A DNA stretch of 64,000 bases from an uncultured bacterium (GCA_964653455.1 CAZZFK010000001.1:158179-222178); one strand, 5' to 3'; shown: positions 5,975 to 64,000, numbered from the stretch's first letter. The notes: generated from the sequence alone by a model not told the origin. Program-made: numbers and translations.

Positions 5975-6622
5975 ATGCCCCATGACGTTTACAATACCGC
6001 CATGAACGAAAGCTCATTCAACATGAGGGCAAAGAACTGGGACAGGAACACGGTCCTCCGCGACCTTGCAGGTACCGTCGCGAAACATATAAAGATGTCC
6101 GCCGCTCCCGGAGGACACGCTATCGATCTCGGGTGCGGGACCGGCCTACTCGGACTGGAACTGATGGACCATTTCACGGACATCGTTTTTGCCGATTCCT
6201 CGGATGGTATGCTCGAAGAAGTTCGCAACAAGCTTGCACATCACAAAAAAGGACCTGCGTGCCGCACGCTCAGGATCGACCTCGATCATGACGAGCTTCC
6301 CGGGACCTACGATTGTATCTTTTCCCAAATGTCTCTCCACCACATCAATGATACTGAAAGGTTCATCGCACATATCGTCCCTCACCTTACCCCGCAGGGC
6401 ATCGTATGCATCGCTGATGTGGTCGCTGAGGACGGATCGTTCCATCAAGGGACCACCGTGCCGCACAATGGCTTCAATCCCTCCTCGCTCCGTGCTCTGT
6501 TCGGGCGGGCGGGGCTGCATACATCCGTCATCGAACCGGTATTCACCATCACAAAACCGGCCCCGGACACGGTAAAGGATTTTCCGATATTCCTGATGAT
6601 CGGTAAAAGAACGACCCCTTAA
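5975..6622 (+). CDS. class I SAM-dependent methyltransferase
   Basis: IDLGCGTGLLGLEL is the Rossmann SAM-binding motif I; acidic motif II (IVFADSSDGM) follows at the expected spacing. Confidence 0.75.
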   Translation: MPHDVYNTAMNESSFNMRAKNWDRNTVLRDLAGTVAKHIKMSAAPGGHAIDLGCGTGLLGLELMDHFTDIVFADSSDGMLEEVRNKLAHHKKGPACRTLRIDLDHDELPGTYDCIFSQMSLHHINDTERFIAHIVPHLTPQGIVCIADVVAEDGSFHQGTTVPHNGFNPSSLRALFGRAGLHTSVIEPVFTITKPAPDTVKDFPIFLMIGKRTTP

Positions 6623-8067
6623 GACGATCTTTGAAGTGCGTGAACGATATCGACCATAGCTTTGGTATCAAGCCCACAGTATTCCTTCAAATGAGCATAG
6701 ACCTCGGCACGGTCAGCATGGTCGTCAGTATACGTGACCCGGTAGTATTCGTGGCTTGCTGTTTCTCCGTCCCCGATCGCCATCCCTTCATATGACGTAC
6801 CGACCAATGCGGGCAGAACATATTTTATCGATGCTGAGCCCTGCTGAAGAGGGTTATAGTACTCAAAGTTCCTGAACGGAACGAGAAGATCAACGATCCT
6901 ACCTATGATAGTACGGACCTGATCGGCATATGCGGGGAATTGTTTCGCACAGGCGTTCAGGATCATACCTTCGAACTGCCTGTTGTAGACCACCACGCTC
7001 CCCGTGTTCCCGACATGCGCACAGACCGACCGGATGAACGTTCCACGCGGGTCCGCAGTCCCTTCTGAAAGGAATGACAGATGTTCGAGCGGTGCCCCAG
7101 GGGAACGTTCGATGTGCAACGAATACTGGAACGGGACATGCTCATGAGGATGCGTACCCTCGAACAAAGGGACCGCAGGAGCGAACGACTCAAAATCAAG
7201 ATAATGAACGGGATACTTCAGCAGGGATAAAAAAGAGCGTATCGCGGACACATCGGTATGGACCGTTCCAGACAATGTCGTCCGGACCTGGATATGTTGT
7301 CTTTCATTAAGATGATATCCCGGCGGAAGCTGATCGAAGGTCATGATGCCCTTATGTATGAGCTCAAAGGCCTGATATTTCCGCAGACCATAGAGATCGA
7401 GCACGCTGTTCTCCGGGATATGCGCAAAACAACGGGACATCAACGGACAATGATGCGGTGTCGTACATTGTTCGCCGATAACGACCGTCGGTGCCTCCGC
7501 AGAACGATGTACTAGGCGCACGCGGGAGATGTCCCCGGCGAGATGTATTTTCCGTTCCCGGACAACGGAGGTCACATCCTCTTTCATAAAAAGCACTGCA
7601 GGCCTCAGCTCACCGCGACGTACGTAGTCCGGGTTCAGGTACAAAATGGAACACGTATTGATACGTAATCCCGCACCTTCATAGACATACAACTGGAACG
7701 CGACATCGGTATAGTGTTCATCCTTGACTGCCGTCGTGGATTTCACCTCCACCACATCCCATGAACCGTCATGGCCCGGGAGCAGAATATCCGCACGTGC
7801 AAAACAGCCGTCATACATGAATCCCGCCTCGAAGAGCGGTGTTCTGTTATCGGGTACACGGGTCAGTACGGCGGGATCGCTCACCGTTCCCTCAAGAACA
7901 ACACCATCAGGATACAATGCTCGCGCTAAGAGCCCGACACTCTTCCCTGCGTCCATACGTGCCCGCTGTGATACAGAAAGCGGTTCAAGGTCATGCGGCG
8001 CATGTTGTTTTTTCCAGGCATACAGAGGACATTGCAGGCCGATGAGCAGATCGGATTTGGTGAACAT
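6619..8067 (-). CDS. two-domain nuclease: N-terminal Cas4/RecB-like PD-(D/E)XK domain with Cys cluster, C-terminal DEDD-like 3'-5' exonuclease-like domain
   Basis: N-terminal Cys (GLQCPLY), DVVEVKS (ExK of PD-(D/E)XK) and C.5.C.5.C (CTTPHHCPLMSRC) match the Cas4-like layout; C-terminal HYLDFESF, YNRQFEGMIL and HADRAE resemble exonuclease motifs I, II and III. Confidence 0.55.
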   Translation of the reverse strand: MFTKSDLLIGLQCPLYAWKKQHAPHDLEPLSVSQRARMDAGKSVGLLARALYPDGVVLEGTVSDPAVLTRVPDNRTPLFEAGFMYDGCFARADILLPGHDGSWDVVEVKSTTAVKDEHYTDVAFQLYVYEGAGLRINTCSILYLNPDYVRRGELRPAVLFMKEDVTSVVRERKIHLAGDISRVRLVHRSAEAPTVVIGEQCTTPHHCPLMSRCFAHIPENSVLDLYGLRKYQAFELIHKGIMTFDQLPPGYHLNERQHIQVRTTLSGTVHTDVSAIRSFLSLLKYPVHYLDFESFAPAVPLFEGTHPHEHVPFQYSLHIERSPGAPLEHLSFLSEGTADPRGTFIRSVCAHVGNTGSVVVYNRQFEGMILNACAKQFPAYADQVRTIIGRIVDLLVPFRNFEYYNPLQQGSASIKYVLPALVGTSYEGMAIGDGETASHEYYRVTYTDDHADRAEVYAHLKEYCGLDTKAMVDIVHALQRSS

Positions 8068-13246: not shown

Positions 13247-13394
13247 CTCTGCTCCCTTATTATGGGCGATACATTACCTTCCGGCACACCTGTGCCGGTA
13301 CTATGTTAATATCGTACAGATATCGTTGGAAATTCAGCGGATCAATCCTATGCCGTGGCCGGACGTACGACCGCGCTTGCGCTACCTCGCCAGC

Positions 13395-15521
13395 TCAATG
13401 TACGGGACTGGGGTCAATAGTGCTGTCGGCAGGGTATGTGTTATGGACCCGATATGACGAATACCCCTTGGTCCCTCTCATTTTATTCGCTCGTCGTTCA
13501 TTTTCCAGGATACGGGTAGCTTCTTGAATATCATGTGCAGCATCCTTGAGTACCATCAAGGAATCCTTTTGTATCTGATAGAGCACGTGCCGGGACCTTT
13601 TAAAAAGGGAGGGATATACATGATGCTCGATCGCCCATCGGTTCAGCTGCCTCAGCCGCGCAAGTTCATACTGCTCCCATCGGGCAGGGAAACGGTCCTG
13701 TTCATCCTTCTCGAGCCGACCGCGGACATATCCATACAATTCTGCCGCAAGACGGTCATGCATGACATGTTCTTCCGTTATACCAAGGAGAGAAAAGAGG
13801 TCGTTACGCGCTATCAGTTCATTGAGATTATCCCACGCAGAAAGCCCTGTTCGGGCGGATAATGACGGATACGTCCGCAATAAGAACTCCAATACCTCCT
13901 TAGCGTCCTGATTGCTGATATCCTCAATCCCGTATTTACCCAGGTCCATATCCCACGTCAGGAAATGCGGCCCGAGCCTAAAGGTCCTTTCTTGTTCCTC
14001 GATCCATTTTTTCTGTAAAGCTTGTACGGCCGCATCGATATCTCCGTTACAGGCATCAAATATCCTGCCGTACGTATCCATCGTATTCCTGTCATCGTCG
14101 ATCGAGGCCAGATACCGCAACGCCTCCGTGCGTTCTTGAACATCATGTTGTGCCCCATCACGACCGTCATGCCGAACGGCGAACTTCTTATCCACCTCAG
14201 CCAGAAGATCATCAAGGCTCGCCAACGGGGCATATGTAGGTTCAGGCTTTTTTTCTGACGGACGGTGAACAGGACCATCTTTCGAACTTCCGTCTTTCCG
14301 GTCACCTGAACCCTCTTCCCGAATGACCGCTGCGACACGCATCTTTTTTTTCTGCTCTTCAAGGAGCCTATCCCCTATCTGTTTATGTCTGTCCGATGTT
14401 CTCTGCATGCCGTCCTTGAGCCACTGCCGCACCTCCGCACTGACCGCATCAAAGATACCGCTCGCGGCCATATCCGCGTCGTTCGGCAAGAGATATATCT
14501 GTGTCCCGTTCTGATACCGCAAGAGCTTCTGACCGTTCTCCTGTAACATATGCCGATAGAACAGGACCGAGCGCTCGGTAGTGCCTATATCTTTCGCGAA
14601 TTGGCGCACACACTGGTACATGGTGCGCACCTGACCGCCCATATAACGGCCGCGCAGATATTTATCGAAATCATCAGGATATAATCTGGAGATACTTTCC
14701 GCCCTCTTCAGGTCCTTCATGATCTGCTGCGATATCTTTGCGGGAGCGGACGCATCGAGGTCCAGGCCTTTTGTCGAGAACACTTCTTTTTCCGTATACC
14801 CGCTCTTGGGGTTCTTTTGCAGCCCGAGCTCCAGAACGGACACTAACTTGACCGCATCGCCCACGGATAACGCGAGAGGATCATCAGCCTCTTCCTGCGG
14901 CCACATTTCTTCCAAGCTCTTGGCCTCTTCGGAACGAACGCCCAGTTTTTTAAGCGCATTGGCCTTGCGCTCGTCCTCACAAAATATCAATCTCACGACA
15001 TTCTGCTCTGCAGGATAACGGCATATATCCGACATATGATGTACGAACAAGAACTCAAAATAATACCTGTAGACCCCTGTTACCCCATGGGACTTAAAGA
15101 ACCGTTCTTTATCGGCCGAGAACACATATTCCTCGAACAGTTCTTTCAGGTCCCAGCGAAAAACATCGTCCAGGCAGACCTTCCGTGTCTTTCCCCCGCG
15201 CACTATCACCACCTCATCAAGAGGTGCGTGAGTATGAAATACCGAAGCGAGCAAATCCTTTTCTTTGATGCCTACGGGATGGGGGGACGTTCTGATGTGT
15301 TTCATCAATTCTTCAAAGATCTGTGTGCGCTCTTTTTCTTCCTGTATCTCTTTGAGGTCCAGTTTCTTGACGCCCGCTTTTGTATCCGTAACAAGCGCTC
15401 CGCCGGAAGCCGACCAGTCCAGCAGTTCTTTGCCTTTATCGTCCGATATCATTTTTTTATGCCACATGGCCATACCCCTTCTTCCTATATAGATATCGTA
15501 TTTTTTGGAAAAAACTCCCAT
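13395..15521 (-). CDS. uncharacterised protein, paralog A (708 aa), UBA-like motif
   Basis: Shares with the next gene the N-terminus MG..(D)(I/T)YI.R...M..WH.K..SD, YRYYFEFLFVHH, a GL..D/E..AP.I helix and a Lys/Arg/Pro-rich linker; YGRIFDACNGDIDAAVQAL resembles the UBA / EF-Ts N-terminal fold. Confidence 0.65.
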   Translation of the reverse strand: MGVFSKKYDIYIGRRGMAMWHKKMISDDKGKELLDWSASGGALVTDTKAGVKKLDLKEIQEEKERTQIFEELMKHIRTSPHPVGIKEKDLLASVFHTHAPLDEVVIVRGGKTRKVCLDDVFRWDLKELFEEYVFSADKERFFKSHGVTGVYRYYFEFLFVHHMSDICRYPAEQNVVRLIFCEDERKANALKKLGVRSEEAKSLEEMWPQEEADDPLALSVGDAVKLVSVLELGLQKNPKSGYTEKEVFSTKGLDLDASAPAKISQQIMKDLKRAESISRLYPDDFDKYLRGRYMGGQVRTMYQCVRQFAKDIGTTERSVLFYRHMLQENGQKLLRYQNGTQIYLLPNDADMAASGIFDAVSAEVRQWLKDGMQRTSDRHKQIGDRLLEEQKKKMRVAAVIREEGSGDRKDGSSKDGPVHRPSEKKPEPTYAPLASLDDLLAEVDKKFAVRHDGRDGAQHDVQERTEALRYLASIDDDRNTMDTYGRIFDACNGDIDAAVQALQKKWIEEQERTFRLGPHFLTWDMDLGKYGIEDISNQDAKEVLEFLLRTYPSLSARTGLSAWDNLNELIARNDLFSLLGITEEHVMHDRLAAELYGYVRGRLEKDEQDRFPARWEQYELARLRQLNRWAIEHHVYPSLFKRSRHVLYQIQKDSLMVLKDAAHDIQEATRILENERRANKMRGTKGYSSYRVHNTYPADSTIDPSPVH

Positions 15522-15582
15522 TTTGAGGGGCTCTGGAGGGTGGTGCCCGGTGTGAAAAATACCGAATAATGCCGGACCTTCG

Positions 15583-17424
15583 TCAGCCGAACATATCCTT
15601 CAGTTCCTGGGCATGTTTCTCATTGATCTCAGCGGCTTTACGTAATAATTCTTTCTTGGCGACCTCGAAGTTGCCTCCGTTCTCTTCCAGGACACTTTTA
15701 CATTGGTCCTTGTCAAAACCGGCCATCATCACTTCACGCAACAGGGTCAACTCGCGAACTTCCTTTGAATAGGATCGGAGCAGCTCGGAACGCCAGAGGA
15801 TATCTTCCTCTTTTTCGTTCAACGGGCGGCCAAGCAACAATATCTTTCTCGCTCGGCCGATACTATTGCCTGAACGTTCATACGCAGAGGAGCACTCATC
15901 CCAGGTCTTTTTCGTTTCATAACAAAGGCTGAAGATATCGTCCTTTATTTGCTGCTCAGCAGTGATCGCCGCACGTTTCAGCGCATCGTGCTTCCTATCC
16001 ACCTCTTCACAGATCTGTTCAAAACTCTTCCGGGGAGGGAATTCCACCGGCACATACTGTTTCCTTTGAGGGACTTCCGCTTTAGGCGACGAGACCTTTT
16101 TTGGCGGGATCACAGGGACAGGCCGTGTCTCAGATTCTCGCTTTCCCCGCATTTCCGTCTCGCGTTGTTTTTGCTTTGCTTCTTCAAGAGCGGCCATTTT
16201 ACGCCCCGCCGCCAATATCTCCTCATGTTCTTCATCGTTCTTCAGCTTCAACCAATCGATGACATCCATGATGCGCCGTTGGTTCACATCGTTCTTGTCT
16301 TTCCGCTGACGATGGAGCTCATCTTTCAGCCCGGACAACGCAGTGGGATTGTTCAGGACGATGTACATTTCGCCCCTGTCCTCATATATGAAGAATTTTA
16401 CGCCGTTATTCAAAAGGAGATACTTGACCGCCTCAATGGCTTTGACCGTGCATCCGAGCTCTTTGGCCAACCTCGATTCTTCTCCGCCATAGTCCTGGTC
16501 CAAAAGTTTTTTAAGGTCCTCAAAACGCTGATATTCATACTTGATCTTTTTGCGCTCATGAATGAGTTTACGTATCTGCGGTGCCGTCTCCCTGTTCAAC
16601 CCAAGAGCATTGAGGAGCGTACGCTCCGTATACCCTAACGGGTCCCTTCTGTTGCCTTTGTTCAATAACCCCAGAAGTTCTTCTTCTTTCTCATGAAATA
16701 TCTGGATCGTATCGATATTCTCGTATTCGAACGTATCATAACCGACCCACAGGGATTCCAGTTGCTGTGCGGCAATGGAATTCTTGCCCAATTTTGCTAC
16801 GGCAGCCTCTACCCTGTCCTGCAGGGAAGGAAGAATGAAGATCTCCCCGTTATGAGCATATCTGATGATCTTGAGCGGATGATTGGCGAACAGATAACTG
16901 AAGTAGTACTTATACTGCTCTTTGATGTTCGAATCGGAAAGGAATCGTCCGATATTGTTCACATATCTGCGGGAAAGCTGGACCATATCTTCGACCGAGA
17001 TATCCATTAAGGGTTTTACCTTGAAATCATTTGGCCCTGCGATCACATTATAGGGGACCTGCGGCACCTTGATAGTGAACGCTGCCGGATATCCGAGGAC
17101 CTCCAGCAAGCGTTTTTCCCGCACACCGAACACGTCCTTTTCCGTGCTTAATTCATGTACGATCTTCTTTCTCAGGTCCTCGAGGGCCCTCTCATCTTTC
17201 AATTCAGCGGGCGTTTTTTTAACTTCCTGTTTAACGTCAAAAGTATCATCCGCAGCGAACAACTGCAGGTCCATACGCAGCTCAATACGCTCGCCATTCT
17301 CTCCGACCGCATATACGGGCGTTCTCAGCCACGCAAGACAATCGGATAATAATTTATTATGCCACACGGACATACCTGTGCACCTCTGTATATAGGTATC
17401 GGAACCTCCTGAAGGTCGTCCCAT
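15583..17424 (-). CDS. uncharacterised protein, paralog B (613 aa), C-terminal UBA-like domain
   Basis: Paralogous to 13395..15521 (YKYYFSYLFANHP, LGCTVKAIEAVKYLLLNNG); C-terminal VMMAGFDKDQCKSVLEENGGNFEVAKKELL fits the UBA consensus (MGF ... NG.(V/F)E.A...LL). Confidence 0.65.
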   Translation of the reverse strand: MGRPSGGSDTYIQRCTGMSVWHNKLLSDCLAWLRTPVYAVGENGERIELRMDLQLFAADDTFDVKQEVKKTPAELKDERALEDLRKKIVHELSTEKDVFGVREKRLLEVLGYPAAFTIKVPQVPYNVIAGPNDFKVKPLMDISVEDMVQLSRRYVNNIGRFLSDSNIKEQYKYYFSYLFANHPLKIIRYAHNGEIFILPSLQDRVEAAVAKLGKNSIAAQQLESLWVGYDTFEYENIDTIQIFHEKEEELLGLLNKGNRRDPLGYTERTLLNALGLNRETAPQIRKLIHERKKIKYEYQRFEDLKKLLDQDYGGEESRLAKELGCTVKAIEAVKYLLLNNGVKFFIYEDRGEMYIVLNNPTALSGLKDELHRQRKDKNDVNQRRIMDVIDWLKLKNDEEHEEILAAGRKMAALEEAKQKQRETEMRGKRESETRPVPVIPPKKVSSPKAEVPQRKQYVPVEFPPRKSFEQICEEVDRKHDALKRAAITAEQQIKDDIFSLCYETKKTWDECSSAYERSGNSIGRARKILLLGRPLNEKEEDILWRSELLRSYSKEVRELTLLREVMMAGFDKDQCKSVLEENGGNFEVAKKELLRKAAEINEKHAQELKDMFG

Positions 17425-37949: not shown

Positions 37950-38083
37950 AGGAAAAGTATAGCATCGTAGTAAAGGGGCTGTCCTTGCCTGTACCCCCCT
38001 GAGCTGAATACTGTTTTCTGGGCTAGCATGCGCAAAACAGGTGCCAGACACCAACCAAGCCAAGCCCCACTTCTCTATATCAC

Positions 38084-38545
38084 TCAGTGAATACCCAAAA
38101 CATCACGTAATTTCTCCAATACCTCCCGAGAAACCGAGCTTTGGTCACATGCGAACAAGGACCACAAAAAGAATTTTGCCACATGAAAACCCATAAATAG
38201 ACAGAACAAGGTCATCAGATCAAGATGCATAATATTGAACTGCATCACAACAAGATGACCGAAAATAGCGATCAATAAGAATACATACGCGATCCTATCA
38301 AGATATATCCAGGGGCAATCATTTTGAGGATAGAGGTTCCCGCTCGTCACAGCTGCGTTCCAGAACGCGACAAACACAGCCATAAGGAAAGCCGTGATCG
38401 TTAAAAAACCGATCATACCCAGATAACCACCGTCATTTGGTATTGAATCACTGGACCACCATATCGAAGACCAGAACAGCCAATATGCGGTAGTTGCAAA
38501 TATTTTCCAGAACATATATACACCTCTTTCTTTAGTTTTTCCCAA
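38084..38545 (-). CDS. hypothetical integral membrane protein
   Basis: 153 aa with about four hydrophobic helices, Trp-rich N-terminus; no motif recognised. Confidence 0.5.
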   Translation of the reverse strand: MGKTKERGVYMFWKIFATTAYWLFWSSIWWSSDSIPNDGGYLGMIGFLTITAFLMAVFVAFWNAAVTSGNLYPQNDCPWIYLDRIAYVFLLIAIFGHLVVMQFNIMHLDLMTLFCLFMGFHVAKFFLWSLFACDQSSVSREVLEKLRDVLGIH

Positions 38546-38668
38546 ATACTATAGATACGCCTTTTGCCAAACAGAACACAAAAAGGCCTTGCATAATTGA
38601 TTCATGCATTCCGGGATTTTCCCCCATAAGGACCACCTGTTTCATAGCATTTTCAAGTTTATTCATAT

Positions 38669-38836
38669 TCATTTTCTTCTCCTTTTCTTAATACCCTTTT
38701 TGCTCTGTTCCTCGCGTTCCTGCAACAAACAAAGCAAAAATACAACATACAACACGCCAAACAATGCATACCCATACAGCCGGGAATAGAACACCGTGAC
38801 AAGAAAAACGACCACCCCCGGAATGGCTGCATACAT
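38669..38836 (-). CDS. small hydrophobic protein (55 aa, C-terminal KKRRRK)
   Basis: AGGAGGTG 6 nt upstream of ATG 38836 (MYAAIPGVVVFLVTVFYSRLYGYALFGVLYVVFLLCLLQ...); a second 46-codon ORF starts in an ATGA overlap with its stop; different frame from the Cys-rich 94-aa track ORF. Confidence 0.3.
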   Translation of the reverse strand: MYAAIPGVVVFLVTVFYSRLYGYALFGVLYVVFLLCLLQEREEQSKKGIKKRRRK

Positions 38837-39011
38837 ACATCACCTCCTGCTACTGAATAACAACAAGGCCCCACACAACCATATATAGCAGGTTTACTTG
38901 CCATTTTTTGGCAAGTTTGTTTATTAGTCATTTGACAATACAAATCAGGGAAATATCGGACAATTTATTGCTGAGTAATACTATTTTACTGACAGCCAAA
39001 TACCTTCCGTA

Positions 39012-40766
39012 TCATTCAGTTTCTACTTGTGAATTAAAATTCTTTAGCATATTCTGAACCTGTTCCCAATTACTTTCCGACGCGGTATACCTTTTGTCAT
39101 GAACAATCAGTTCTTCACCATATAATTTCTCAAGTATATACGCAACAGACTTAGTAATAGACCAAGCCAAGACCTCATCAGGCTTTTCTCCCAAACAATA
39201 CTTTTTGACATCCTCTTTTGAAACATTAATTAATATTTTCCCGGTGTAGCTAAGATAGCGGTATTTTTCTTTATCCATTATACAACCCGGAAAATTCGCA
39301 TGCTTCAATGTATTATGAATTTTCCGAACATCGTGCGCATTAGCAAATACCTTTTCGTCCATTCCACTCCACAAGCAACTCTTTTTAAGGCTGTTCAACA
39401 ATAGAAAATATTCACACTCATCCATACTCTCCGTTTTCTTCTCTACCTCTATCTTATCCTTATCCACTATCATAAAACTGTCCTTACCGGAGCTAACCAA
39501 AAGCGATCGATATTTTTTGCGAACAGCCTGCTCGGCCAAGGAACACCCCAGGCTACAAGCAGACTCATATTTCCCAATAAAATAACAAAAATACATTTCA
39601 TCTAACAATTTCCCCAGACGGGGATCTCCAATACTATTATCCGAATCGTCCTTTAATTCATACCTATTCCCATACTTTTCTAATCTCAGAAGACATTCTT
39701 GCTGCTTCTGCTCAGTAAAGAAATGCTGAGATAATTCAGATTCAACTTTGCTCTTTTGATCAAATTGAAGTTCTCTAATTTTTCTAGTATCAGCCAAAGC
39801 TTTTTCTATCTCGCCTCTTTCCCGATACAACTCAGCTCTAGCTTCTATAGCTGCTATAAAATTACCGTTAATCGCTATTGCTTTATTAAAGGCATCAAGC
39901 GCATCCTCAATATTACCAAAACTCTGGTCCTCTAGCCCGATGAAATAATAAGCATATTCATTATCTGGATTGAGCTCCAGAGCTTTCTCATAAGATGGAA
40001 ATCCATGACATTGGCTAGTATCGGAGCAGAAGAATACTATCGCATTCGACAATTCATTCTTATATTCAGGGCAGAGATCAGCCAAATTGTCTATCTGCAG
40101 CTCAAACTCCTCAAATAAAGCACTTATATCGACTGCAAGGTCTATCCAATCAAAAGCATCCATCATCGGAGTTTTAAGCACCTCAATATAATCATCAAGA
40201 GCTTCTTTATGCTTAGCTTGCTTCATCCTTGCATGGCCACGAAAGAAACATATATGACACCTAGGCGATGAATAACCAACCACTTTTAACTCTGAACGCT
40301 CTCTTTTATCCATATAGACAGAACAAGCTTTCTCCAATGCCGGATAGTCTTCCAATGCGAAATTAATCTGACACACGCGCCAATATACTTTCTCATCGAT
40401 ATCATTGCGACCACTCTCAAGAACCTTTTTATAGTCTTTAAGTGCATTTTCATAATCGGCGTTGTTAAAATACAAATCACCTCTATCATTATGAATAATA
40501 TCCTCATAACATCGCTTCAACCCATTTACCTCTGCAGGAAAGCGCTCAACAATATCCAATGCTTTTTTATAATCCTCAAACATTTGCTGAACTGCATCAG
40601 GATGATTTAACTTCTCTGTCGCCCATGCTCGCCACATATACGCTTGCGGAAGATAGATAGAGGTATCATTATTAGCAGTTTTTATTATTTCACTTAATAA
40701 ATCAAAGGCTTCTTGATATTTACCCTTATCATATAATTCAATACCAGCATTAATTTTTTCTTTCAT
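39012..40766 (-). CDS. TPR-repeat protein with uncharacterised C-terminal domain
   Basis: Repeated 34-residue units with the W/LG/Y/A/F/AP TPR pattern (KGKYQEAFDLL, YENALKDYKKVLE, ALDAFNKAIAINGNF); last ~230 aa have no recognised motif; AT-rich gene. Confidence 0.7.
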   Translation of the reverse strand: MKEKINAGIELYDKGKYQEAFDLLSEIIKTANNDTSIYLPQAYMWRAWATEKLNHPDAVQQMFEDYKKALDIVERFPAEVNGLKRCYEDIIHNDRGDLYFNNADYENALKDYKKVLESGRNDIDEKVYWRVCQINFALEDYPALEKACSVYMDKRERSELKVVGYSSPRCHICFFRGHARMKQAKHKEALDDYIEVLKTPMMDAFDWIDLAVDISALFEEFELQIDNLADLCPEYKNELSNAIVFFCSDTSQCHGFPSYEKALELNPDNEYAYYFIGLEDQSFGNIEDALDAFNKAIAINGNFIAAIEARAELYRERGEIEKALADTRKIRELQFDQKSKVESELSQHFFTEQKQQECLLRLEKYGNRYELKDDSDNSIGDPRLGKLLDEMYFCYFIGKYESACSLGCSLAEQAVRKKYRSLLVSSGKDSFMIVDKDKIEVEKKTESMDECEYFLLLNSLKKSCLWSGMDEKVFANAHDVRKIHNTLKHANFPGCIMDKEKYRYLSYTGKILINVSKEDVKKYCLGEKPDEVLAWSITKSVAYILEKLYGEELIVHDKRYTASESNWEQVQNMLKNFNSQVETE

Positions 40767-40809
40767 TATAGAAACCCCTTTTACCTTGTACCTTTCTTAA
40801 AATAACACA

Positions 40810-42237
40810 TCAAGAATTATCTTCATCCTGCCCTTTCTCGCCATATGCATCATAAAAATACCTGAACGCCACCTTCGCATTTGTAGTATCTTTATGATAT
40901 CTATTTGCCATTCTTTGCTTTAATACCTGCAGAATCGTACCGCAGCCCGGCTGATACTTCGACTTGCCGGAAAGCAACTTAATGACCTCTTCCGCGAGAG
41001 CGCTCCTGAGCTCCGTATTCATTTCTTTGCCAGCCCTATTCCCCTCCATCTGCTCTATCACATGATTGATCGTTTTCTCGGGATCCTTTTCATACTCATA
41101 AAAATACTTTTCCGCCTCAACTTCATTACTCCTGATGCTTGTCAGCTGTGCTTCATAATTATCTTTCATCTTGCTCACAACACTAAAGATCCGCTCCGTA
41201 AGCTCCCGGGGAGCATAGGCCGTTACATCCCCGCCCCAACCCAATATCCATTTTTCTAATGCATATTTATCCGCCAAAGTATCCCATTCAAAATCATTAA
41301 AAAAGAACTTTGCTTTTATATTGGAAGGGAGCATCGCAGCTTCTTGTATGACATTCCTGAAAAGTTCTTTTTTCCATATCCCTTTCGAATAAATGGCACT
41401 ATTGGCAAAGGTCTTCATTTCATACAGGTAGGGGGCGATCTTCGGGGATATCCGCACCTCCACAGATCTGCTGCTTTTCCTTTTTTGGGCATTTAAAAAC
41501 CTCTTTAATTCCTTACTCCTTGGTTTAAATTTCTTGTGCAGCTGCCGCATGCTCTTTATTCTGGCCAAAGCTAAAAGAACAAAGCCAGTCCGTGTTTTAT
41601 CCAGGCAATACGCCAATACATACCAGCGATAGTTGTTATACACAAAAACGTATGGCTCGATGACTTTTTCTTCCGCAACGAACTTATTATCCTGGAGTTT
41701 CGTGTACGTATAATATTCAATTTTCAGTGAAGTCTTCGCTTCGATCGCCGCATCAATACGTTCAAATACGTCCGAAAATGCAAAATCACAATAAGGAATA
41801 TGCCCGATAAAATATCTGGCCATAGTCTTCTTTGTATCGAGCTTGTGCTGCCCCATATTCGCCTTAATGATCTTTGCGACGGCAGACTTAAAATGGGTCT
41901 TGAGAGGCGTGCCTTCAAAAGAAGGCAGGAATCTTTCTGCTACAAGTAAAGCTTCTGCTTCCTTAGGAGATAGCGAAAAAGCACCCTTTGCTAAACGAAC
42001 AGGGTTAGTGAAGTAATACGTAGATTTCCCTTCTTTTTCAACCCTGACCATATCTTCTTCCATGAGCTTTTTCAGATTACGGTCTAATGTTCGTTGGGGA
42101 ATATGAAGATTATTCAGCAAATATTGTCGTGATAGTTTGTTCTTGATCAAAAGATCTTTATCTTTATCTAAATACTCTCGCGTTGTCAGCTCAATATAAT
42201 CTGTAAGGTATTTAATAGCTTTCACTTGCTTGCGCAT
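40810..42237 (-). CDS. WYL-domain transcriptional regulator with N-terminal HTH
   Basis: N-terminal winged-helix segment and a central WYL domain (EPYVFVYNNYRWYVLAYCLDKTRTGFVLLALARIKSM); about 230-aa C-terminal extension; AT-rich gene. Confidence 0.7.
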   Translation of the reverse strand: MRKQVKAIKYLTDYIELTTREYLDKDKDLLIKNKLSRQYLLNNLHIPQRTLDRNLKKLMEEDMVRVEKEGKSTYYFTNPVRLAKGAFSLSPKEAEALLVAERFLPSFEGTPLKTHFKSAVAKIIKANMGQHKLDTKKTMARYFIGHIPYCDFAFSDVFERIDAAIEAKTSLKIEYYTYTKLQDNKFVAEEKVIEPYVFVYNNYRWYVLAYCLDKTRTGFVLLALARIKSMRQLHKKFKPRSKELKRFLNAQKRKSSRSVEVRISPKIAPYLYEMKTFANSAIYSKGIWKKELFRNVIQEAAMLPSNIKAKFFFNDFEWDTLADKYALEKWILGWGGDVTAYAPRELTERIFSVVSKMKDNYEAQLTSIRSNEVEAEKYFYEYEKDPEKTINHVIEQMEGNRAGKEMNTELRSALAEEVIKLLSGKSKYQPGCGTILQVLKQRMANRYHKDTTNAKVAFRYFYDAYGEKGQDEDNS

Positions 42238-42454
42238 ATGTTATTTTGACATAGAAGCAATATGATTGCCATATTTTGGCAATAATATATTTGGGTATTA
42301 AAATGCCTGTATTTATTGCTTAAAAAATACCTCCATTACCCCCTGAATAGATATCATTTTTTACTGCCACGCCCAGCAAAACAGGCGCCAGACACCAACT
42401 TGAACAGAAGCATGATAAAATCAGGTCAGGATAGCGTACCGAGGGAGAAAGAGC

Positions 42455-52102: not shown

Positions 52103-53977
52103 CTATTTTTTATTTCGTTTCAGCGGGATCAGGGATAAGAAAGGCCCGACCATAAATGAAACAGAAGCAACAATGAATATCGGAGCAAAAGGAAGCATGA
52201 ACGATATAGAGAACAGAACCCCGCCAAAGATCAGTTCTTTATAATGCTTTTTTACCACATCAATGAACGGATTTTTTGTTTGTATCTTACCCTTTGGAGT
52301 AACGTGAAATATCGTATCTGAAGAAAACCCCTCAAAAACACCTTTCGCAATAGACAGTCCTGCACTGATAAAACCAAGGAACGCAGGGATTATGAATACA
52401 ATACTTTGAAATGCCTGCTTGATCTTTTTACTCATTACAAGATTTATAAAATCCATGCCTATTATACCAAGAAAAGCATGCCCAAAAGGCCTACTATATT
52501 GATAGATAGAATTGACCAATGAAAAGTCAGCATGAGATTGTAGTCCAATGATGCCAGTAACACTTAAGATGAGCGGGGCAATCGCAAACATATAGGCAGA
52601 GAGCGGATAATATGAAAACCGATAACACATGTCCGCTTTTTCATTCCAAGGAATATGCTTTGCATGAACAAAAGATGGCATTATCCTTCGAAGGGATTCG
52701 ACCCCTCCTTTAGCCCAACGTTTTTGCTGTACTTTAAAACGATCAAGATCCTCCGGTGAATGATCGACCACATGTACATAAGAGATCCGTTTACCTTTAT
52801 CCCAATAAGAGTGTTCCGCCCGCAACGATAGTCCCGTTGCCCAATCCTCCCCAACAAAATCTTCTTTCCATCCTCCAACGTCTTCAAAAGCGGCCTTTTG
52901 ATACAAAATAGCATAACCTCCTGAAGTTGCATGACCTATCCTTTCAACAGTATGCGTCAATTTTGACCTTGCACGATTTAATGCCGCAATAGGTTGATTG
53001 AATAAATTGTCATCACCCTTATCATCCACATCATAAACCAAGAACGGAAGTTTCTGATTATCCCTGAACTCCGGAACTGACTTTTTCAAGAGATCAGGCG
53101 CAAACTCTATATCACAATCGATCTGAAGAAATAGATTACCCTTCGGCCGATAAAAAACATTATCCGCATAAGATCGTAGTCCCAAGCTTATGTTCAAATT
53201 CCTTGCCTTACCACCCTCTTTGCCGTCACGATGAATAAAGGTAATACCATATTCAGTACAATAGGCCTCTAGTTCCGGCTTCCGAACACCATTAGAAAGA
53301 ACAACAATATCAAGCTTATCTTTCGGGTAATCCACCTCCAAAGCACTCCTGAGGGATGTACTCTTCAATAGCTCTAAAGGTTCATTATATGTAGGAATGG
53401 TTATTGTCACATGCGGCAGGTCTTTTTCTTGCATCGGGAGCGGCTCACATTCAGGACCTCTGAATAGCCCGACCATATTTGCAACAATACTCGTACTAAA
53501 GAATGGTATCGCAGCAAATAGATAAAAACTAGAGACTACCATGCTTGTAATGCCTGCCGATATTTCCGAAAGTGAGAACATATTCTTTATAAGCGGCGCA
53601 ACGGAATAAATATAGTACGCACTGGCCGCTCCATAGGTCAGTATTATCGATGACCATGCCTTTTTTTCCGTGCTTTCGAACATGGCCCTGTAGCAATGTT
53701 CAAAAACACTTTTTGATAGTTCTTTGACCATCAACTTCGCATTATGCATTGACCGAGAGATCGGATTTAGATCTATCTGAGGGAAAAGGGAAAAATCGTT
53801 CTGAAGCTGCATGCCATCACCGCTAAAAGCCAGGTTCTGTTTGAAAAAGATATTATCAATAGATGAAATGACCGCATCTGTATAGGGTCTTACCTGAACA
53901 GGGCTGGCATCCTTCTTTAAAAAGGATATATCTTTTACAGGATCATCGAACCCCATTATCTTTGTATGCCTGAACAT
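52103..53977 (-). CDS. family 2 processive glycosyltransferase (cellulose/chitin/hyaluronan synthase-like), membrane-bound
   Basis: GT2 motifs DCD (LQIDCDIEF), GED (FVGEDWATG) and Q..RW (VQQKRWAKGG) with N- and C-terminal TM helices; gene is AT-rich. Confidence 0.7.
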   Translation of the reverse strand: MFRHTKIMGFDDPVKDISFLKKDASPVQVRPYTDAVISSIDNIFFKQNLAFSGDGMQLQNDFSLFPQIDLNPISRSMHNAKLMVKELSKSVFEHCYRAMFESTEKKAWSSIILTYGAASAYYIYSVAPLIKNMFSLSEISAGITSMVVSSFYLFAAIPFFSTSIVANMVGLFRGPECEPLPMQEKDLPHVTITIPTYNEPLELLKSTSLRSALEVDYPKDKLDIVVLSNGVRKPELEAYCTEYGITFIHRDGKEGGKARNLNISLGLRSYADNVFYRPKGNLFLQIDCDIEFAPDLLKKSVPEFRDNQKLPFLVYDVDDKGDDNLFNQPIAALNRARSKLTHTVERIGHATSGGYAILYQKAAFEDVGGWKEDFVGEDWATGLSLRAEHSYWDKGKRISYVHVVDHSPEDLDRFKVQQKRWAKGGVESLRRIMPSFVHAKHIPWNEKADMCYRFSYYPLSAYMFAIAPLILSVTGIIGLQSHADFSLVNSIYQYSRPFGHAFLGIIGMDFINLVMSKKIKQAFQSIVFIIPAFLGFISAGLSIAKGVFEGFSSDTIFHVTPKGKIQTKNPFIDVVKKHYKELIFGGVLFSISFMLPFAPIFIVASVSFMVGPFLSLIPLKRNKK

Positions 53978-58704: not shown

Positions 58705-59169
58705 ATGTTGCACAAGATCGTCGAACATACCGTAACGCCAGTCTGGACCGAAGAAGAAGATGTCGACCAGGACGACCTGATCCTTCCCAAGCACATTGAA
58801 TCATGGACAACAACGGTCAACATGTTCAAAAGCACCTGCTCACTGCTCAACGATGTGCAAGAGCTTATCTCCTTTCTGAAAGAATACTGGGATGATTTTC
58901 TTATGGACACCGCGGTCCTAGACGATAAAAGAAAGGAACTCGTCAGGATCATGGGTATCATCCGCATCGATCTGAGCAAGTACATTTTTGCCGGATTTTT
59001 CGAACGATACGCCCACGCCGAACACAGAGAACAGTTCTTGAACGATCTCCGTTCAATACTACAGGACCCGGTCTCCCGCAAGGTCCTGAACAATAAACAT
59101 CTTAAAAGCATGAAGATATCTCTGGACTATATCGATACGCTCAAAGGAACGTTATTGCCGCCTGAATGA
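58705..59169 (+). CDS. hypothetical protein (154 aa)
   Basis: TAAGGAG upstream of the ATG; no motif recognised. Confidence 0.5.
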   Translation: MLHKIVEHTVTPVWTEEEDVDQDDLILPKHIESWTTTVNMFKSTCSLLNDVQELISFLKEYWDDFLMDTAVLDDKRKELVRIMGIIRIDLSKYIFAGFFERYAHAEHREQFLNDLRSILQDPVSRKVLNNKHLKSMKISLDYIDTLKGTLLPPE

Positions 59170-59194: not shown

Positions 59195-60973
59195 CTAGCG
59201 CGATTGACGCCGCATGTTGTCGATACCTTGATCGAGCGGCGAATCGTCATGATCATCCGCCCAGATATCGCAGAATTCAAGGGTGGAGCTGATCGGCGGC
59301 GCGTTCGGAGGGGTGACCTTGATGCGCAACGGTAACAATACCGCATCACCGATGACGATCAATTCTCCGATGCCCAATATCGGCAGTGATTCCACAAGTC
59401 CGGACATACCGTCCGGCATGAGCTTCTTCACTATCTCCTGGTCCATCGAATTGGTCAAACGCAAGGTCATGATGTTGCCGCATTGGCTCAAGATGCCCGG
59501 ATTCACGTCAGCCGGACGCTGACTGACCACCATCAGGGCGACCCCGTATTTCCGGCCTTCCTTGGCGATACGTTGAAAATTAAAGAGCGTATTCCGCTGC
59601 ATGGCGTTCGCGATCTCCGTCGGCGGCAGGTACAGATGGGCCTCATCGCAGACCATGACCACCGGATGACGGTCCGTCGGCTCGTTCCAGAACTGCACCA
59701 GGAACAGGAACCGGCCGATGGTCGAGATGATGACCGGGAGCATTTCGCTCGGCACCATGGAAAAGTCGATTATCTTGATGCCGGGGTTCGTCTTGTCCAA
59801 CTTACCCGTACCCAGCAATATTTTCACGAACTTATTGATATAGTCGAAATCAAAAACATATTTCGGTCCTTCAAAAAGGAAGTTATAGCGTTTATCAGCC
59901 TTCTTTGCTTCGATACGCGGGATGAACCGGTCGAACTTGCCGTAGTACGGCCCGGCCGTGACATTGCCCAGACCGATGCCGGGAACGAGCTCTTTATTGA
60001 TGCGCTTCAGTTTTGTCAGGACCTCGTTCATGTCGTACGGTATCGGACTGTCAATGGTAAAGGATTTGATATAGCGCTCCTGCTTATGTTCTTTCAAGTA
60101 CTGCAGTTTCTCGTTCTTGATGATCTCATGCAGGACCAGGGCGTGCGTCGGAGCGTCCGGATCATGATTATCCACAAGCACCGTCAATAATTCCTCATAG
60201 CTCAGGAACCAGGCAGGCATGAAGAGAGATTCATCCGTGGGATTCGCGGAATCCGCAGGCGTGGCGATATGCAGCGACTTCGCGTAATGCAGGCCTTTAT
60301 ATTCACCGTGGATATCGAAAATGACCACATTGGCGCTGTTGAGCTCGGCGACCTTCTCGATGATCGTGGACACGGTCCAGGATTTTCCGCAGCCGGAACT
60401 GCCCAGGAGCGCCACATGCCGCTGAAAAAGCTTGTTGCCGTTCACGTACGCGACCACGTCCTTGTCCAGGACATAGTTGCCAAAAGGCAGATCGGCGTTC
60501 GTGCGGCTCTCCGAGATACCGCCCATAAAGAACGCCAGATCGGGTCCTTCGAGCGCAAAGCAGGGAGCTTCGACATCAGCGACGTTAATGACAGCACGCG
60601 TAAAGCTCCCCTTATGCGTACGCTTATTGATCATGAACGTGCCGATGAGACCTATCTCGGCGATATGTTTTTTCTCCAGGTCCGTCGCCCCGTCCCCTTC
60701 CAGCGTGTTCTCGATACGTCCGATCAGGAACTCATGCTCACGTACCCGGACCGCACACAACCGGTCGACGCGGGCTATTTTCAGTTTTTCAATGGATGCG
60801 ACACGCATACGCAGACGCGTACTGGTCACTTCAAAGATGGTCCCTATGAATTCTTCTTCCGAAAAATCAAATACAGGCGCAGTATCTGCGTTCTCAAGCC
60901 GTGCGATCTCCTTCGCACTGGCCGAGGTCTCCTGCCCTGTTCGCTGTGTGGCTTTATCCTTCATGTGGCCCAT
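59195..60973 (-). CDS. HerA-like (DUF87, FtsK/HerA superfamily) ATPase
   Basis: Walker A GSSGCGKSWTV, Walker B VVMVCDEAHLYLP and the family-typical LMVVSQRPADVNPGILSQCGN; start may be the internal ATG at 60964, which has better spacing to GAGGGGG. Confidence 0.7.
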   Translation of the reverse strand: MGHMKDKATQRTGQETSASAKEIARLENADTAPVFDFSEEEFIGTIFEVTSTRLRMRVASIEKLKIARVDRLCAVRVREHEFLIGRIENTLEGDGATDLEKKHIAEIGLIGTFMINKRTHKGSFTRAVINVADVEAPCFALEGPDLAFFMGGISESRTNADLPFGNYVLDKDVVAYVNGNKLFQRHVALLGSSGCGKSWTVSTIIEKVAELNSANVVIFDIHGEYKGLHYAKSLHIATPADSANPTDESLFMPAWFLSYEELLTVLVDNHDPDAPTHALVLHEIIKNEKLQYLKEHKQERYIKSFTIDSPIPYDMNEVLTKLKRINKELVPGIGLGNVTAGPYYGKFDRFIPRIEAKKADKRYNFLFEGPKYVFDFDYINKFVKILLGTGKLDKTNPGIKIIDFSMVPSEMLPVIISTIGRFLFLVQFWNEPTDRHPVVMVCDEAHLYLPPTEIANAMQRNTLFNFQRIAKEGRKYGVALMVVSQRPADVNPGILSQCGNIMTLRLTNSMDQEIVKKLMPDGMSGLVESLPILGIGELIVIGDAVLLPLRIKVTPPNAPPISSTLEFCDIWADDHDDSPLDQGIDNMRRQSR

Positions 60974-61099
60974 ACCCCCTCATCGGCATGACGGTACTTT
61001 CACAATCAGGTATGCCCACTTTCGGCGGATTATATACCTGTCTATTTTCGATTGAAATTACCGAAAAAACACTGCGATAATACGATCAAGGAGCTGTAC

Positions 61100-61654
61100 A
61101 TGCGGACAAAGATCATATCTTTTCACTACCAGGGAAAAGCGGAACAAAAACCGTACGGACCGACAGAACAGTGCCGGCTTGACGCACTGAACATGTTCAA
61201 CATGCATGCCGAACGTTCGCTCACCAAGCTCGATGAACTGTTATTGGACACTGTGACCAACAGAAGCAAAACACCGACCCGTGAAGTATATACCGCGGTA
61301 CAAGAATTCAATACCTTACTGACGACCCTGAAAGAGAACGATCTTTTTGGCCGGTATGGTCCGGGATATGTCATGACGTTCCGTCAAAAGCTCTATGAAT
61401 TACAAGAAAAATATCGAACATGGTTCACGGTCATGAGCTTTGACCGGGACATAGGAACGCTCTGCACATTCTGCAAAGAGCTAGGAGTGCAGGACATCAA
61501 AAAAAACAAGCGAAGAATAAAAACGACCACCGCCGAGAGTGGACCGGAGATCGTCGCAACAGTATCCGAACAGGAAAAGACCGACGGAACACAACTGCCG
61601 GCGGAAGGTCCAACGTTCAGGAACATCCTGGCAAGGTTCAAACGCCGTCCGTGA
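61100..61654 (+). CDS. hypothetical protein (about 184 aa)
   Basis: ATG 61100 with AAGGAG 8 nt upstream (the track starts at 61052); no motif recognised. Confidence 0.5.
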   Translation: MRTKIISFHYQGKAEQKPYGPTEQCRLDALNMFNMHAERSLTKLDELLLDTVTNRSKTPTREVYTAVQEFNTLLTTLKENDLFGRYGPGYVMTFRQKLYELQEKYRTWFTVMSFDRDIGTLCTFCKELGVQDIKKNKRRIKTTTAESGPEIVATVSEQEKTDGTQLPAEGPTFRNILARFKRRP

Positions 61655-63335: not shown

Positions 63336-64000
63336 CTAAAGACTTATCTTGATCCCCACCGGACAATGGTCTGACCCCATGACCTCGGGCAGGATGAACG
63401 CATCCGTGACCGCGGACCGCAGCTCCTCGGAAACGAAGAAATAATCGATCCTCCAGCCGATGTTCCGCTCACGGGCACGCGTCTTCTGGTCCCACCAGGA
63501 GTATTGTTCCGGCTTTTCATTGAACATGCGGAAGGTATCAACATACCCATGGTCAAGAAGAGCATCTATCCACTTGCGCTCACTCGGCAGGAACCCCGAT
63601 GTCTTCTCGTTCTCTTTAGGCCGCGCCAGATCGATCTCCTTATGCGCTGTGTTCACGTCGCCGCAAATAACAATCTTTTTTCCGGCCTTACGTAACTTCT
63701 CGCAGTAGGAGAGCGTCGCATCATAGAAGTCCATTTTATACTGCAACCGTTCCGCATCCTTTTTTCCATTGGGAAAGTAGATATTGAGCAGCGTAAATCC
63801 GGGATGCTCCGTGATGCACACGCGGCCTTCGAGGTCGAACTTCTTGATACCGAAACCGTTCTGAACGGAAAGCGGTCTTTCTTTACAGAACGTCGCCACA
63901 CCGCTGTAGCCTTTTTTCTCGGCGGAACAAAAATGAACGATATAGCCTTCGGGGGCCTTCAGTTCATCGGATAATTGCTCAGGGAGCGCTTTGGTCTCCT
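63336..64000 (-). CDS. xthA: exodeoxyribonuclease III (ExoIII/APE family), N-terminus beyond the window end
   Basis: C-terminal ...RIDYFFVS...SDHCPV and central GDVNTAH motifs; the frame stays open upstream of the track start to position 64000 (ETKALPEQ...KKGYSGVA), so the gene is truncated by the window. Confidence 0.8.

What the first reader, a model, noticed from the sequence alone, without database searches (positions are those of the whole stretch)
59195..60973. Orphan HerA-like ATPase flanked by small hypothetical genes
HerA/FtsK-superfamily ATPases usually work with a partner nuclease (NurA) or effector in repair or defence systems. Here the gene is bracketed by a convergent 154-aa and a divergent ~184-aa hypothetical gene, with no recognisable nuclease. 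The partner may be one of these small proteins or may be encoded elsewhere.
Basis: partly seen in the sequence, partly recalled or inferred. Interest (0 to 1): 0.45.

Follow-up and report, generated by a model that had tools for sequence, protein, structure and literature searches.

The report
Partner-less HerA ATPase in Margulisbacteria
The gene is a real, intact HerA-type ring ATPase from a small group that descends from the ATPase of the SIR2-HerA anti-phage system, has lost its SIR2 partner, and is inherited like an ordinary chromosomal gene in Margulisbacteria; the two small neighbouring genes are lineage-specific and are not its partners.

Summary
ORF 59195-60973(-), whose likely true start is 60964, encodes a complete HerA ATPase. 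It is flanked by a convergent 154-aa gene and a divergent 184-aa gene that match no known family.

The ATPase has no partner gene, but the small neighbours are not partners. One has no homolog. The other has a single homolog among 1.84 billion representative proteins. Neither occurs at any of the other eight solo-clade loci, including the 74%-identical ortholog that keeps the ThyX/IspH/ExoIII synteny.

Homologs at 48% identity or more form a clade with 200/200 bootstrap support. It lies inside the SIR2-linked HerA radiation. A SIR2 gene sits directly upstream in 88 of 94 neighbouring-clade loci and in 0 of 9 solo loci.

Solo genes sit among housekeeping genes and diverge at the same rate as those genes. 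They use native codons and share a conserved upstream DNA motif. They have also gained a conserved N-terminal motif and changed about a dozen positions that are invariant in SIR2-linked HerAs.

Best reading: a defence ATPase retained without SIR2 as a stand-alone, vertically inherited DNA-acting motor. Its cellular role is not established. This is a new variant of a known kind, of moderate interest.

The parts
59195..60973 (-). HerA-family ATPase gene (longest ORF 592 aa; probable true start ATG 60964, 589 aa)
   Evidence: The start is inferred from the ribosome-binding-site spacing and the N-termini of orthologs.
60890..60919 (-). Solo-clade-specific N-terminal motif S19-N28 (SAKEIARLEN; clade consensus [S/A]xK-[I/E/M]-L-x-K-[I/L/V]-E) within a ~33-aa extension
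   Evidence: The motif is present in 17 of 18 solo-clade sequences. It is absent in the SIR2-linked sisters P0020 and P0021. The extension region is occupied in only 14% of 89 SIR2-linked HerAs. The model predicts a short helix at 18-27, at low confidence.
60554..60850 (-). N-terminal beta-barrel (HAS-barrel) domain, residues ~42-140
   Evidence: Secondary structure of the AF2 model. Positions D50 and R92, which are 100% and 88% conserved in SIR2-linked HerAs, are variable in the solo clade.
60380..60403 (-). Walker A motif, G191-S198 (GSSGCGKS)
   Evidence: G191, S192, G194, G196, K197 and S198 are invariant columns in alignment A1.
59642..59647 (-). Walker B acidic pair, D443-E444 (VMVCDEAH)
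   Evidence: Invariant columns in alignment A1.
61011..61037 (-). Conserved bipartite upstream DNA motif GTATATAAT (61029-61037) - N10 - TGGGCATA (61011-61018), about 45 nt before the HerA start; probable promoter or operator
   Evidence: The motif is conserved upstream of the solo HerA genes in L001, L002, L003, L174, L176 and L014, with a variant in L181. TGGGNATA is not enriched in the window overall: 8 sites against 6.8 expected.
60975..60981 (-). Ribosome-binding site GAGGGGG for the HerA start at 60964
   Evidence: Read directly from the sequence.
58705..59169 (+). 154-aa orphan gene, convergent with HerA; not a conserved partner
61100..61654 (+). 184-aa lineage-specific gene, divergent from HerA; one homolog known (P0145, 42% identity)

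Best explanation
The gene encodes an intact HerA-type hexameric P-loop ATPase. It belongs to a small, vertically inherited, partner-less clade found in Margulisbacteria and in unlabelled metagenome contigs that share synteny with them. This clade branched from inside the HerA proteins of SIR2-HerA anti-phage systems and lost the SIR2 gene. Since then it has been kept as a single gene with its own conserved upstream motif, set among housekeeping genes. Three things are shown: the ancestry, the loss of SIR2, and the vertical inheritance under constraint. The mechanism is inferred. The protein probably still assembles into a ring with a beta-barrel crown over a RecA-like motor and uses ATP to act on DNA by translocation, end engagement or nicking. 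In characterised systems the ATPase activity of HerA depends on bound SIR2. The new N-terminal helical motif and the replacement of residues that are invariant in SIR2-linked HerAs are therefore read as adaptation to SIR2-independent activity, or to a new partner encoded elsewhere. The cellular role is most likely a chromosomal DNA transaction such as repair or processing. A residual one-gene immune function is the alternative. The two small flanking genes are recent, lineage-specific insertions and are not part of the system.
For: Family membership is supported. The solo clade (the window protein plus P0002-P0019) is monophyletic in 200/200 neighbour-joining bootstraps and lies nested among SIR2-linked clades. 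A SIR2 gene lies directly upstream and co-directional, with a median gap of -1 nt, in 88 of 94 distinct loci of the neighbouring clades. It is absent from all 9 solo loci, with no six-frame SIR2 hit at E<=1. The solo loci show housekeeping contexts and lineage synteny: ThyX-IspH-ExoIII, or folE|HerA|rpmB...dapA-rnj. HerA diverges in step with its neighbours: window against L001 gives HerA 74%, ThyX 73%, IspH 59%, ExoIII 49%; L002 against L174 gives HerA 54%, L28 57%, DapA 62%, RNase J 60%; L174 against L176 gives HerA 89%, FolE 87%. Codon usage is native, unlike that of the low-GC islands in the same window. Taxon labels point to Margulisbacteria: P0002 and P0003 are annotated as such, and the L28 protein of L174 clusters at 90% identity or more with Termititenax L28. 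The upstream bipartite DNA motif is conserved across orthologs that share only ~50% protein identity. The catalytic motifs are invariant. The clade-specific N-terminal motif and the residue shifts are documented. Close relatives on plasmids (641 records) reach at most 43% identity; the two checked for context (Aliarcobacter faecis plasmid CP053838 and Alcanivorax) are SIR2-linked; there are none in phage collections. The literature shows that HerA alone has weak or no ATPase activity without SIR2, that the SIR2 alpha-1 helix is clamped by two HerA beta-barrels (PMC11472057), and that one E. coli HerA has intrinsic nickase activity (PMC13434337).
Against: Only 64 kb of a contig of at least 525 kb was seen, so a SIR2 gene or another effector elsewhere in the genome is not excluded. 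The sister relationship to P0020-P0023 is weakly supported (114/200), and the tree is neighbour-joining only. No biochemical data exist for any member of the clade. The N-terminal region of the model has low confidence. A defence role cannot be excluded from genomic context alone.
Confidence: 0.72

Rival explanations
1. It is still a component of a two-part defence system, and its effector (SIR2 or another) is encoded elsewhere in the genome and acts in trans.
For: The protein is nested among defence HerAs and matches a PADLOC HerA model at 3e-184. In studied systems HerA ATPase activity needs its partner. Only 64 kb of the genome was examined.
Against: In 88 of 94 related loci the partner gene abuts or overlaps HerA, which suggests strong selection for linkage. 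No SIR2-like ORF occurs in the window or in any of the 9 solo loci. Positions in the beta-barrel, the domain that binds SIR2 in the solved Paenibacillus complex, are invariant in linked HerAs but variable here. Inheritance is vertical and syntenic with native codon usage, which is atypical for defence genes.
Confidence: 0.17
2. One of the small flanking proteins (154 aa or 184 aa) is the functional partner or effector.
For: Both are real-looking genes with ribosome-binding sites and native codon usage. The 184-aa gene shares the divergent promoter region with HerA. Its only homolog, P0145, appears to sit beside the same HerA upstream motif in a second genome.
Against: Neither gene is present in any other solo-HerA locus, including the 74% syntenic ortholog. 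Neither matches any family, structure or defence model. Both are transcribed from the opposite strand, not in an operon with HerA. The HerA clade is far older than either small gene family.
Confidence: 0.04
3. It is a decaying, functionless relic of a degraded SIR2-HerA system.
For: The partner has been lost, and several residues conserved in SIR2-linked HerAs have changed.
Against: Full-length intact ORFs occur in 19 clusters. All ATPase motifs are invariant. Conservation equals or exceeds that of ThyX, IspH, L28 and RNase J at the same loci. The clade has gained conserved features of its own: the N-terminal motif and the upstream DNA motif.
Confidence: 0.02
4. It is a conjugative or type IV secretion coupling ATPase, or an FtsK-like housekeeping translocase.
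For: Weak sub-threshold Pfam hits to TrwB_AAD_bind, FtsK_SpoIIIE, AAA_10 and TraG occur at the P-loop.
Against: Most of these hits are below the curated cutoffs (TrwB_AAD_bind marginally exceeds its cutoff, 21.2 against 20.5), and all cover only ~50 residues around Walker A. Full-length matches are to HerA models and structures. No transfer genes are nearby.
Confidence: 0.01

Closest known systems
HerA of SIR2-HerA (Nezha) anti-phage systems, specifically the subfamily found next to PF13289 SIR2_2 genes (e.g. Aliarcobacter faecis plasmid CP053838, Alcanivorax hongdengensis)
   Same: It shares 41-47% identity over 94% of its length and has the same domain order: beta-barrel, then a RecA-like core with a helical insert. 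The ATPase motifs are identical. The solo clade is phylogenetically nested within this group.
   Different: There is no SIR2 gene. The context is housekeeping rather than a defence island or plasmid. Inheritance is vertical. It has an extra N-terminal motif. About a dozen positions invariant in the linked proteins are changed. It scores far below the NCBIfam equivalog cutoffs (276 against 850; 155 against 800).
HerA of DUF4297-HerA defence complexes (PDB 9c1m, 8xav, 8ziq) and Paenibacillus SIR2/HerA (8wiv, 8wod)
   Same: These are the best solved structural matches, with TM about 0.7 over the full length.
   Different: Identity is only 25-27%. No DUF4297 or SIR2 neighbour is present. The C-terminal arm domain of the Paenibacillus protein is absent.
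Archaeal and bacterial HerA-NurA DNA end-resection machines (PDB 4d2i, 9x1m)
   Same: Same superfamily and overall ring-ATPase fold. A DNA-processing role is plausible.
   Different: Identity is 17-18%. The protein scores 115 bits against a cutoff of 970 for the NCBIfam HerA repair equivalog. No NurA, Mre11 or Rad50 genes are adjacent.
E. coli YjgR (PDB 11kk), a stand-alone HerA-like ATPase
   Same: It is another example of a partner-less chromosomal HerA-like protein.
   Different: It is very distant (E = 0.001, 21 bits, C-terminal region only) and belongs to a different subfamily, so it is an independent case.

Membership tests
HerA / DUF87 ATPase family (FtsK-HerA superfamily) | Pfam PF01935 (HerA central domain) above the gathering score | tested here: met
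   109.2 bits against a cutoff of 23.2; HerA_C scores 27.1 against 22.
HerA / DUF87 ATPase family (FtsK-HerA superfamily) | Intact Walker A, Walker B and arginine-finger region | tested here: met
   GSSGCGKS (191-198), DE (443-444) and EGRKYG (472-477) are invariant in 20 sequences.
HerA / DUF87 ATPase family (FtsK-HerA superfamily) | N-terminal HAS beta-barrel preceding the RecA-like core | tested here: met
   The AF2 model has strands spanning residues 42-140. Foldseek gives full-length matches to HerA chains at TM ~0.7.
HerA / DUF87 ATPase family (FtsK-HerA superfamily) | Hexameric ring assembly and DNA-stimulated ATPase activity | not testable with these tools
   Requires biochemistry or multimer modelling.
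SIR2-HerA anti-phage system | HerA belongs phylogenetically to the SIR2-associated HerA radiation | tested here: met
   Nested position in the neighbour-joining tree. All surrounding clades are SIR2-linked.
SIR2-HerA anti-phage system | Adjacent co-directional SIR2 (PF13289) gene | tested here: not met
   There is no SIR2-like ORF in the 64-kb window or in any of the 9 solo loci, against 88 of 94 related loci that have one.
SIR2-HerA anti-phage system | Reaches the NCBIfam 'anti-phage-associated helicase HerA' equivalog cutoffs | tested here: not met
   NF042944 scores 276 against 850; NF042943 scores 155 against 800.
SIR2-HerA anti-phage system | Protection against phage; NAD+ depletion | not testable with these tools
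   Experimental.
DUF4297-HerA defence system | Adjacent DUF4297 (Cap4-like nuclease) gene | tested here: not met
   The neighbours match no Pfam or PADLOC family. None was found among the 37 window ORFs scanned against Pfam.
HerA-NurA repair machine | Adjacent NurA nuclease (often with Mre11/Rad50) and the HerA repair equivalog score | tested here: not met
   No NurA domain was found in the window ORFs scanned. NF040819 scores 115 against 970.
Conjugative coupling / VirB4 / FtsK translocases | Family models above cutoff over the ATPase domain, and a transfer-gene context | tested here: not met
   Only P-loop-local hits of about 50 residues: FtsK_SpoIIIE, AAA_10 and P-loop_TraG are below cutoff, and TrwB_AAD_bind is marginally above it (21.2 against 20.5). 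No transfer genes are nearby.

The most novel reading that the evidence does not exclude
An immune ATPase has been exapted into a core cellular gene. After losing SIR2, this Margulisbacteria HerA became an autonomous housekeeping DNA motor or nickase. Its newly acquired N-terminal amphipathic helix replaces, in cis, the activating helix that SIR2 normally inserts between HerA beta-barrels. The gene is controlled through a dedicated conserved operator.
Probability: 0.2. Interest if true: 0.65.

Novelty: new variant of a known kind. Interest (0 to 1): 0.45.

Why it matters
SIR2-HerA is a widespread abortive-infection system. Published work indicates that its ATPase depends on the SIR2 partner for activity. 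A clade that has kept the ATPase for a long evolutionary time without SIR2, at housekeeping rates of change and with new conserved features, is a natural experiment. It can show what HerA does on its own and how defence components are repurposed for cellular functions. It also has a practical consequence for annotation. Defence-finding tools will either ignore this gene or, on the strength of its HMM score, suggest an incomplete defence system. Comparative context shows it is neither incomplete nor mobile.

Tried and rejected
1. Small neighbours as partners. I searched Pfam, PADLOC, NCBIfam, PHROGs and PDB sequences, ran the word-indexed search of 5.8 billion proteins, ran an exhaustive search for the 184-aa protein, and predicted a single-sequence AF2 model of the 154-aa protein. 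That model had pLDDT 44.6, too poor for a fold search. The two small proteins are not paralogs of each other. Rejected.

2. The hit of the 184-aa protein to P0146 (2481 aa, 9 matched stretches) is a repeat or composition artefact of a cadherin-like repeat protein.

3. Hypothesis that the N-terminal motif is a remnant of the SIR2 alpha-1 helix, left by an in-frame deletion. A PSSM scan of 96 SIR2 proteins placed the best match in the alpha-1 zone in only 17% of them (about 6% expected). Scores there were lower than elsewhere in the same proteins. Not supported.

Phyletic coverage of the clade therefore could not be measured.

5. Mobile-element origin. No relatives were found in IMG/VR. There are no close relatives in phage records, and plasmid relatives reach at most 43% identity. 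No tRNA genes or flanking repeats are present. Rejected.

6. Rfam search of 56-64 kb found no known RNA element.

7. The generic sigma-70 and terminator scan gave counts no different from shuffled sequence.

Full report
**1. What is in the sequence**

The minus-strand ORF 59195-60973 (592 aa) is real. It is a complete HerA-family ATPase:
- Pfam DUF87/HerA central domain scores 4e-31 (109 bits against a cutoff of 23), and HerA_C is above its cutoff.
- PADLOC HerA model PDLC04105 aligns end to end at 3e-184.
- Hits to conjugative, FtsK and VirB4 models cover only about 50 residues around the P-loop; all but TrwB_AAD_bind (21.2 against 20.5 bits) are below cutoff.

The Walker A motif (GSSGCGKS, 191-198), the Walker B motif (DE, 443-444) and the EGRKYG arginine region are invariant in a 20-sequence alignment. 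An AlphaFold2 model built on that alignment (pLDDT 78, pTM 0.74) shows a disordered N-terminus with one short helix, a beta-barrel at about residues 42-140, and a RecA-like core with a helical insertion. Its best Foldseek matches in the PDB are HerA chains of DUF4297-HerA and SIR2/HerA complexes, at TM about 0.7 and 25-27% identity.

The probable true start is ATG 60964. It has a GAGGGGG ribosome-binding site 10 nt upstream, and the orthologs start MKE/MKD.

The two small neighbours exist as described. The 154-aa gene is at 58705-59169(+). The 184-aa gene is at 61100-61654(+). Each has an AAGGAG ribosome-binding site and host-like codon usage only in the annotated frame.

**2. The small neighbours are not partners**

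Neither protein matches Pfam, PADLOC, NCBIfam, PHROGs or any PDB sequence. They are also unrelated to each other.

The word-indexed search of 5.8 billion proteins returned only self-hits. An exhaustive HMMER scan of 1.84 billion representatives with the 184-aa protein found one true homolog, P0145 (42% identity), plus a repeat artefact. A single-sequence structure model of the 154-aa protein was all-helical but too poor to use (pLDDT 44.6).

Neither protein has any counterpart in the other solo-HerA loci by phmmer or tblastn. The closest ortholog with usable context is L001 (74% identity). There the ExoIII-IspH-ThyX-HerA synteny is kept, but a DUF493 gene and an HD-domain gene occupy the positions of the two small genes. 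None of these genes has a homolog in the other genome.

**3. What the ATPase is related to**

Homologs fall into two sharply separated groups.
- Every homolog checked at 41-47% identity has a PF13289 SIR2 gene immediately upstream and co-directional, often inside BREX or restriction islands or on plasmids. These were Aliarcobacter, Alcanivorax, P0020, P0022 and P0025.
- I built a SIR2 profile from those neighbours and scanned all fetched loci. Of 94 distinct loci in the adjacent score band with enough upstream sequence, 88 carry SIR2 directly upstream, with a median gap of -1 nt.
- All homologs at 48% identity or more with retrievable context lack it. These are the window itself, L001, L002, L003, L174, L176, L180, L181 and L014. 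A six-frame scan of these loci and of the whole 64-kb window gave no SIR2 hit even at E<=1.

In a neighbour-joining tree of 68 sequences, the solo sequences (window, P0002-P0019) are monophyletic in 200/200 bootstraps. They sit inside the SIR2-linked radiation. Their nearest sister, P0020-P0023, is SIR2-linked, though that sister relationship has weak support (114/200). The parsimonious reading is a single loss of SIR2 on the stem of this clade.

**4. How the solo clade behaves**

*Genomic context.* The contexts are housekeeping, and in most loci the gene stands alone between a divergent upstream gene and a convergent downstream gene:
- DHS / HerA / ThyX-IspH-ExoIII in the window.
- S15-PNPase | HerA | L28-DapA-RNase J in L002.
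- FolE | HerA | L28 in L003 and L174.
- FolE | HerA in L176.
- GH116 | HerA-LigA in L181.
- Rrf2...HerA | FliJ in L180.

*Window content.* The rest of the window is ordinary chromosome: EF-P, RF3, PGK, PFK, HydF, SufBD, PilB/PilC-like ATPases, CorA and an ABC transporter. No NurA, SIR2 or DUF4297 domain was hit among the 37 ORFs scanned.

*Rate of change.* HerA divergence tracks that of its neighbours:
- Window against L001: HerA 74%, ThyX 73%, IspH 59%, ExoIII 49%.
- L002 against L174: HerA 54%, L28 57%, DapA 62%, RNase J 60%.
- L003 against L174: HerA 66%, L28 74%, FolE 79%.
- L174 against L176: HerA 89%, FolE 87%.

*Codon usage and mobility.* Codon usage is native, unlike that of the low-GC islands in the same window. 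Relatives on plasmids are numerous (641 records) but reach at most 43% identity. Phage and IMG/VR collections hold no close relative.

*Taxonomy.* P0002 and P0003 are annotated as Margulisbacteria. The L28 protein next to P0012 clusters at 90% identity or more with L28 of Candidatus Termititenax. The other members come from unlabelled metagenome contigs that share the FolE/L28 synteny.

**5. Features gained and lost with SIR2**

I compared 18 solo and 89 SIR2-linked HerAs.
- The solo clade has an N-terminal extension of about 33 residues. The corresponding region is occupied in only 14% of linked proteins.
- Within the extension is a conserved motif: window S19-N28, SAKEIARLEN; clade consensus AKKILxKIE. 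It is present in 17 of 18 members and absent in the SIR2-linked sisters.
- Positions that are 88-100% conserved in linked HerAs are replaced or variable in the solo clade: D50 and R92 in the beta-barrel, R269, N276, E406, E467, T493, D534 and W568 (W568 becomes Cys in 94% of solo sequences).
- Thirteen positions, including W568C, are fixed for a solo-specific residue.

The beta-barrel matters here because published structures show that two HerA beta-barrels clamp the alpha-1 helix of SIR2. They also show that SIR2 binding is needed for substantial HerA ATPase and helicase activity (PMC11472057). In an E. coli type III system, HerA alone is a nickase but has no ATPase activity without Sir2 (PMC13434337). 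A HerA that persists alone must therefore have become autonomous or found another partner. The changes listed above are consistent with that, but this step is inference.

I tested whether the N-terminal motif is a leftover of the SIR2 alpha-1 helix. The evidence is weak and I do not adopt the idea.

**6. A conserved upstream DNA element**

About 45 nt before the start codon, the solo genes share a bipartite motif, GTATAWWW-N10-13-TGGG[C/T/A]ATA. In the window it lies at 61029-61037 and 61011-61018 on the minus strand. It is also present in L001, L002, L003, L174, L176 and L014, with a variant in L181. These orthologs share only about 50% protein identity.

TGGGNATA is not a general feature of the window: 8 sites against 6.8 expected. 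This argues for an own, conserved promoter or operator, and for monocistronic expression.

The same element, read on the opposite strand, explains why the over-extended N-terminus of P0145 aligns in-frame with the window's intergenic DNA. This suggests the 184-aa family sits beside HerA in one further genome.

**7. Verdict**

The idea that the ATPase is an orphan is right. The idea that a small neighbour is its partner is not supported.

The best-supported account is a SIR2-HerA-derived ATPase retained alone, vertically and under constraint, in Margulisbacteria. It probably acts as a stand-alone DNA-acting ring ATPase. Its cellular role, whether repair or processing or residual immunity, remains open.

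I found no description of such a clade in the searchable literature. It is a new variant of a known kind. Interest is moderate: it is not a new mechanism, but it is a clean natural case of a defence component living without its effector.

Noticed in passing
window 38000-42300: A low-GC island (39-40% against ~51%) holds a 584-aa TPR-repeat protein (39012-40766, minus) and a 475-aa WYL/WCX-domain regulator (40810-42237, minus). Both have non-native codon usage. It is possibly an acquired, defence-like module.
   Followed up: partly
L149:6528-7760 and the equivalent positions in L151, L063, L062, L066, L070, L068, L161, L069, L163: A more distant HerA clade (33-36% identity, 531-549 aa, from Ignavibacteriales and Bacteroidota MAGs) has a ~410-aa gene of one conserved family directly upstream and co-directional instead of SIR2; the one member scanned (L149) is a SpoIIE/PP2C phosphatase-domain protein. 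Another subset has a different conserved upstream family of ~375 aa. These may be uncharacterised HerA partner pairs.
   Followed up: partly
window 10388-17424: Three large adjacent minus-strand genes (952, 708 and 613 aa) have no Pfam match. By eye, the 708- and 613-aa proteins look like paralogs, with similar N-termini.
   Followed up: no
window 60992-61099 against P0145 residues 5-43: The only homolog of the 184-aa protein carries an annotated N-terminal extension. This extension aligns in-frame with window DNA that has no start codon. The region is the reverse complement of the conserved HerA upstream motif, so the extension is probably a gene-calling artefact over conserved regulatory DNA.
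   Followed up: partly
window 6619-8067 (minus): A 482-aa DUF2779 protein sits 51 kb from HerA. From my own knowledge, this family is PD-(D/E)XK/Cas4-like. Nothing links it to HerA.
   Followed up: no
window 52103-53977 (minus): A 624-aa family-2 glycosyltransferase lies in a second low-GC segment (41%) with non-native codon usage.
   Followed up: no
window 63336-64000 (minus): The ExoIII-like gene runs off the window end. The 187-aa ORF listed by the ORF tool is only its C-terminal part. The reading frame is open to position 63998 and aligns to residues 39-257 of the L001 ortholog.
   Followed up: yes
L181:4428-5312: In one solo-HerA locus, the gene 34 bp downstream and co-directional looks, from its sequence motifs, like an NAD-dependent DNA ligase (LigA). 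This is the only DNA-repair-type neighbour seen in the clade.
   Followed up: no
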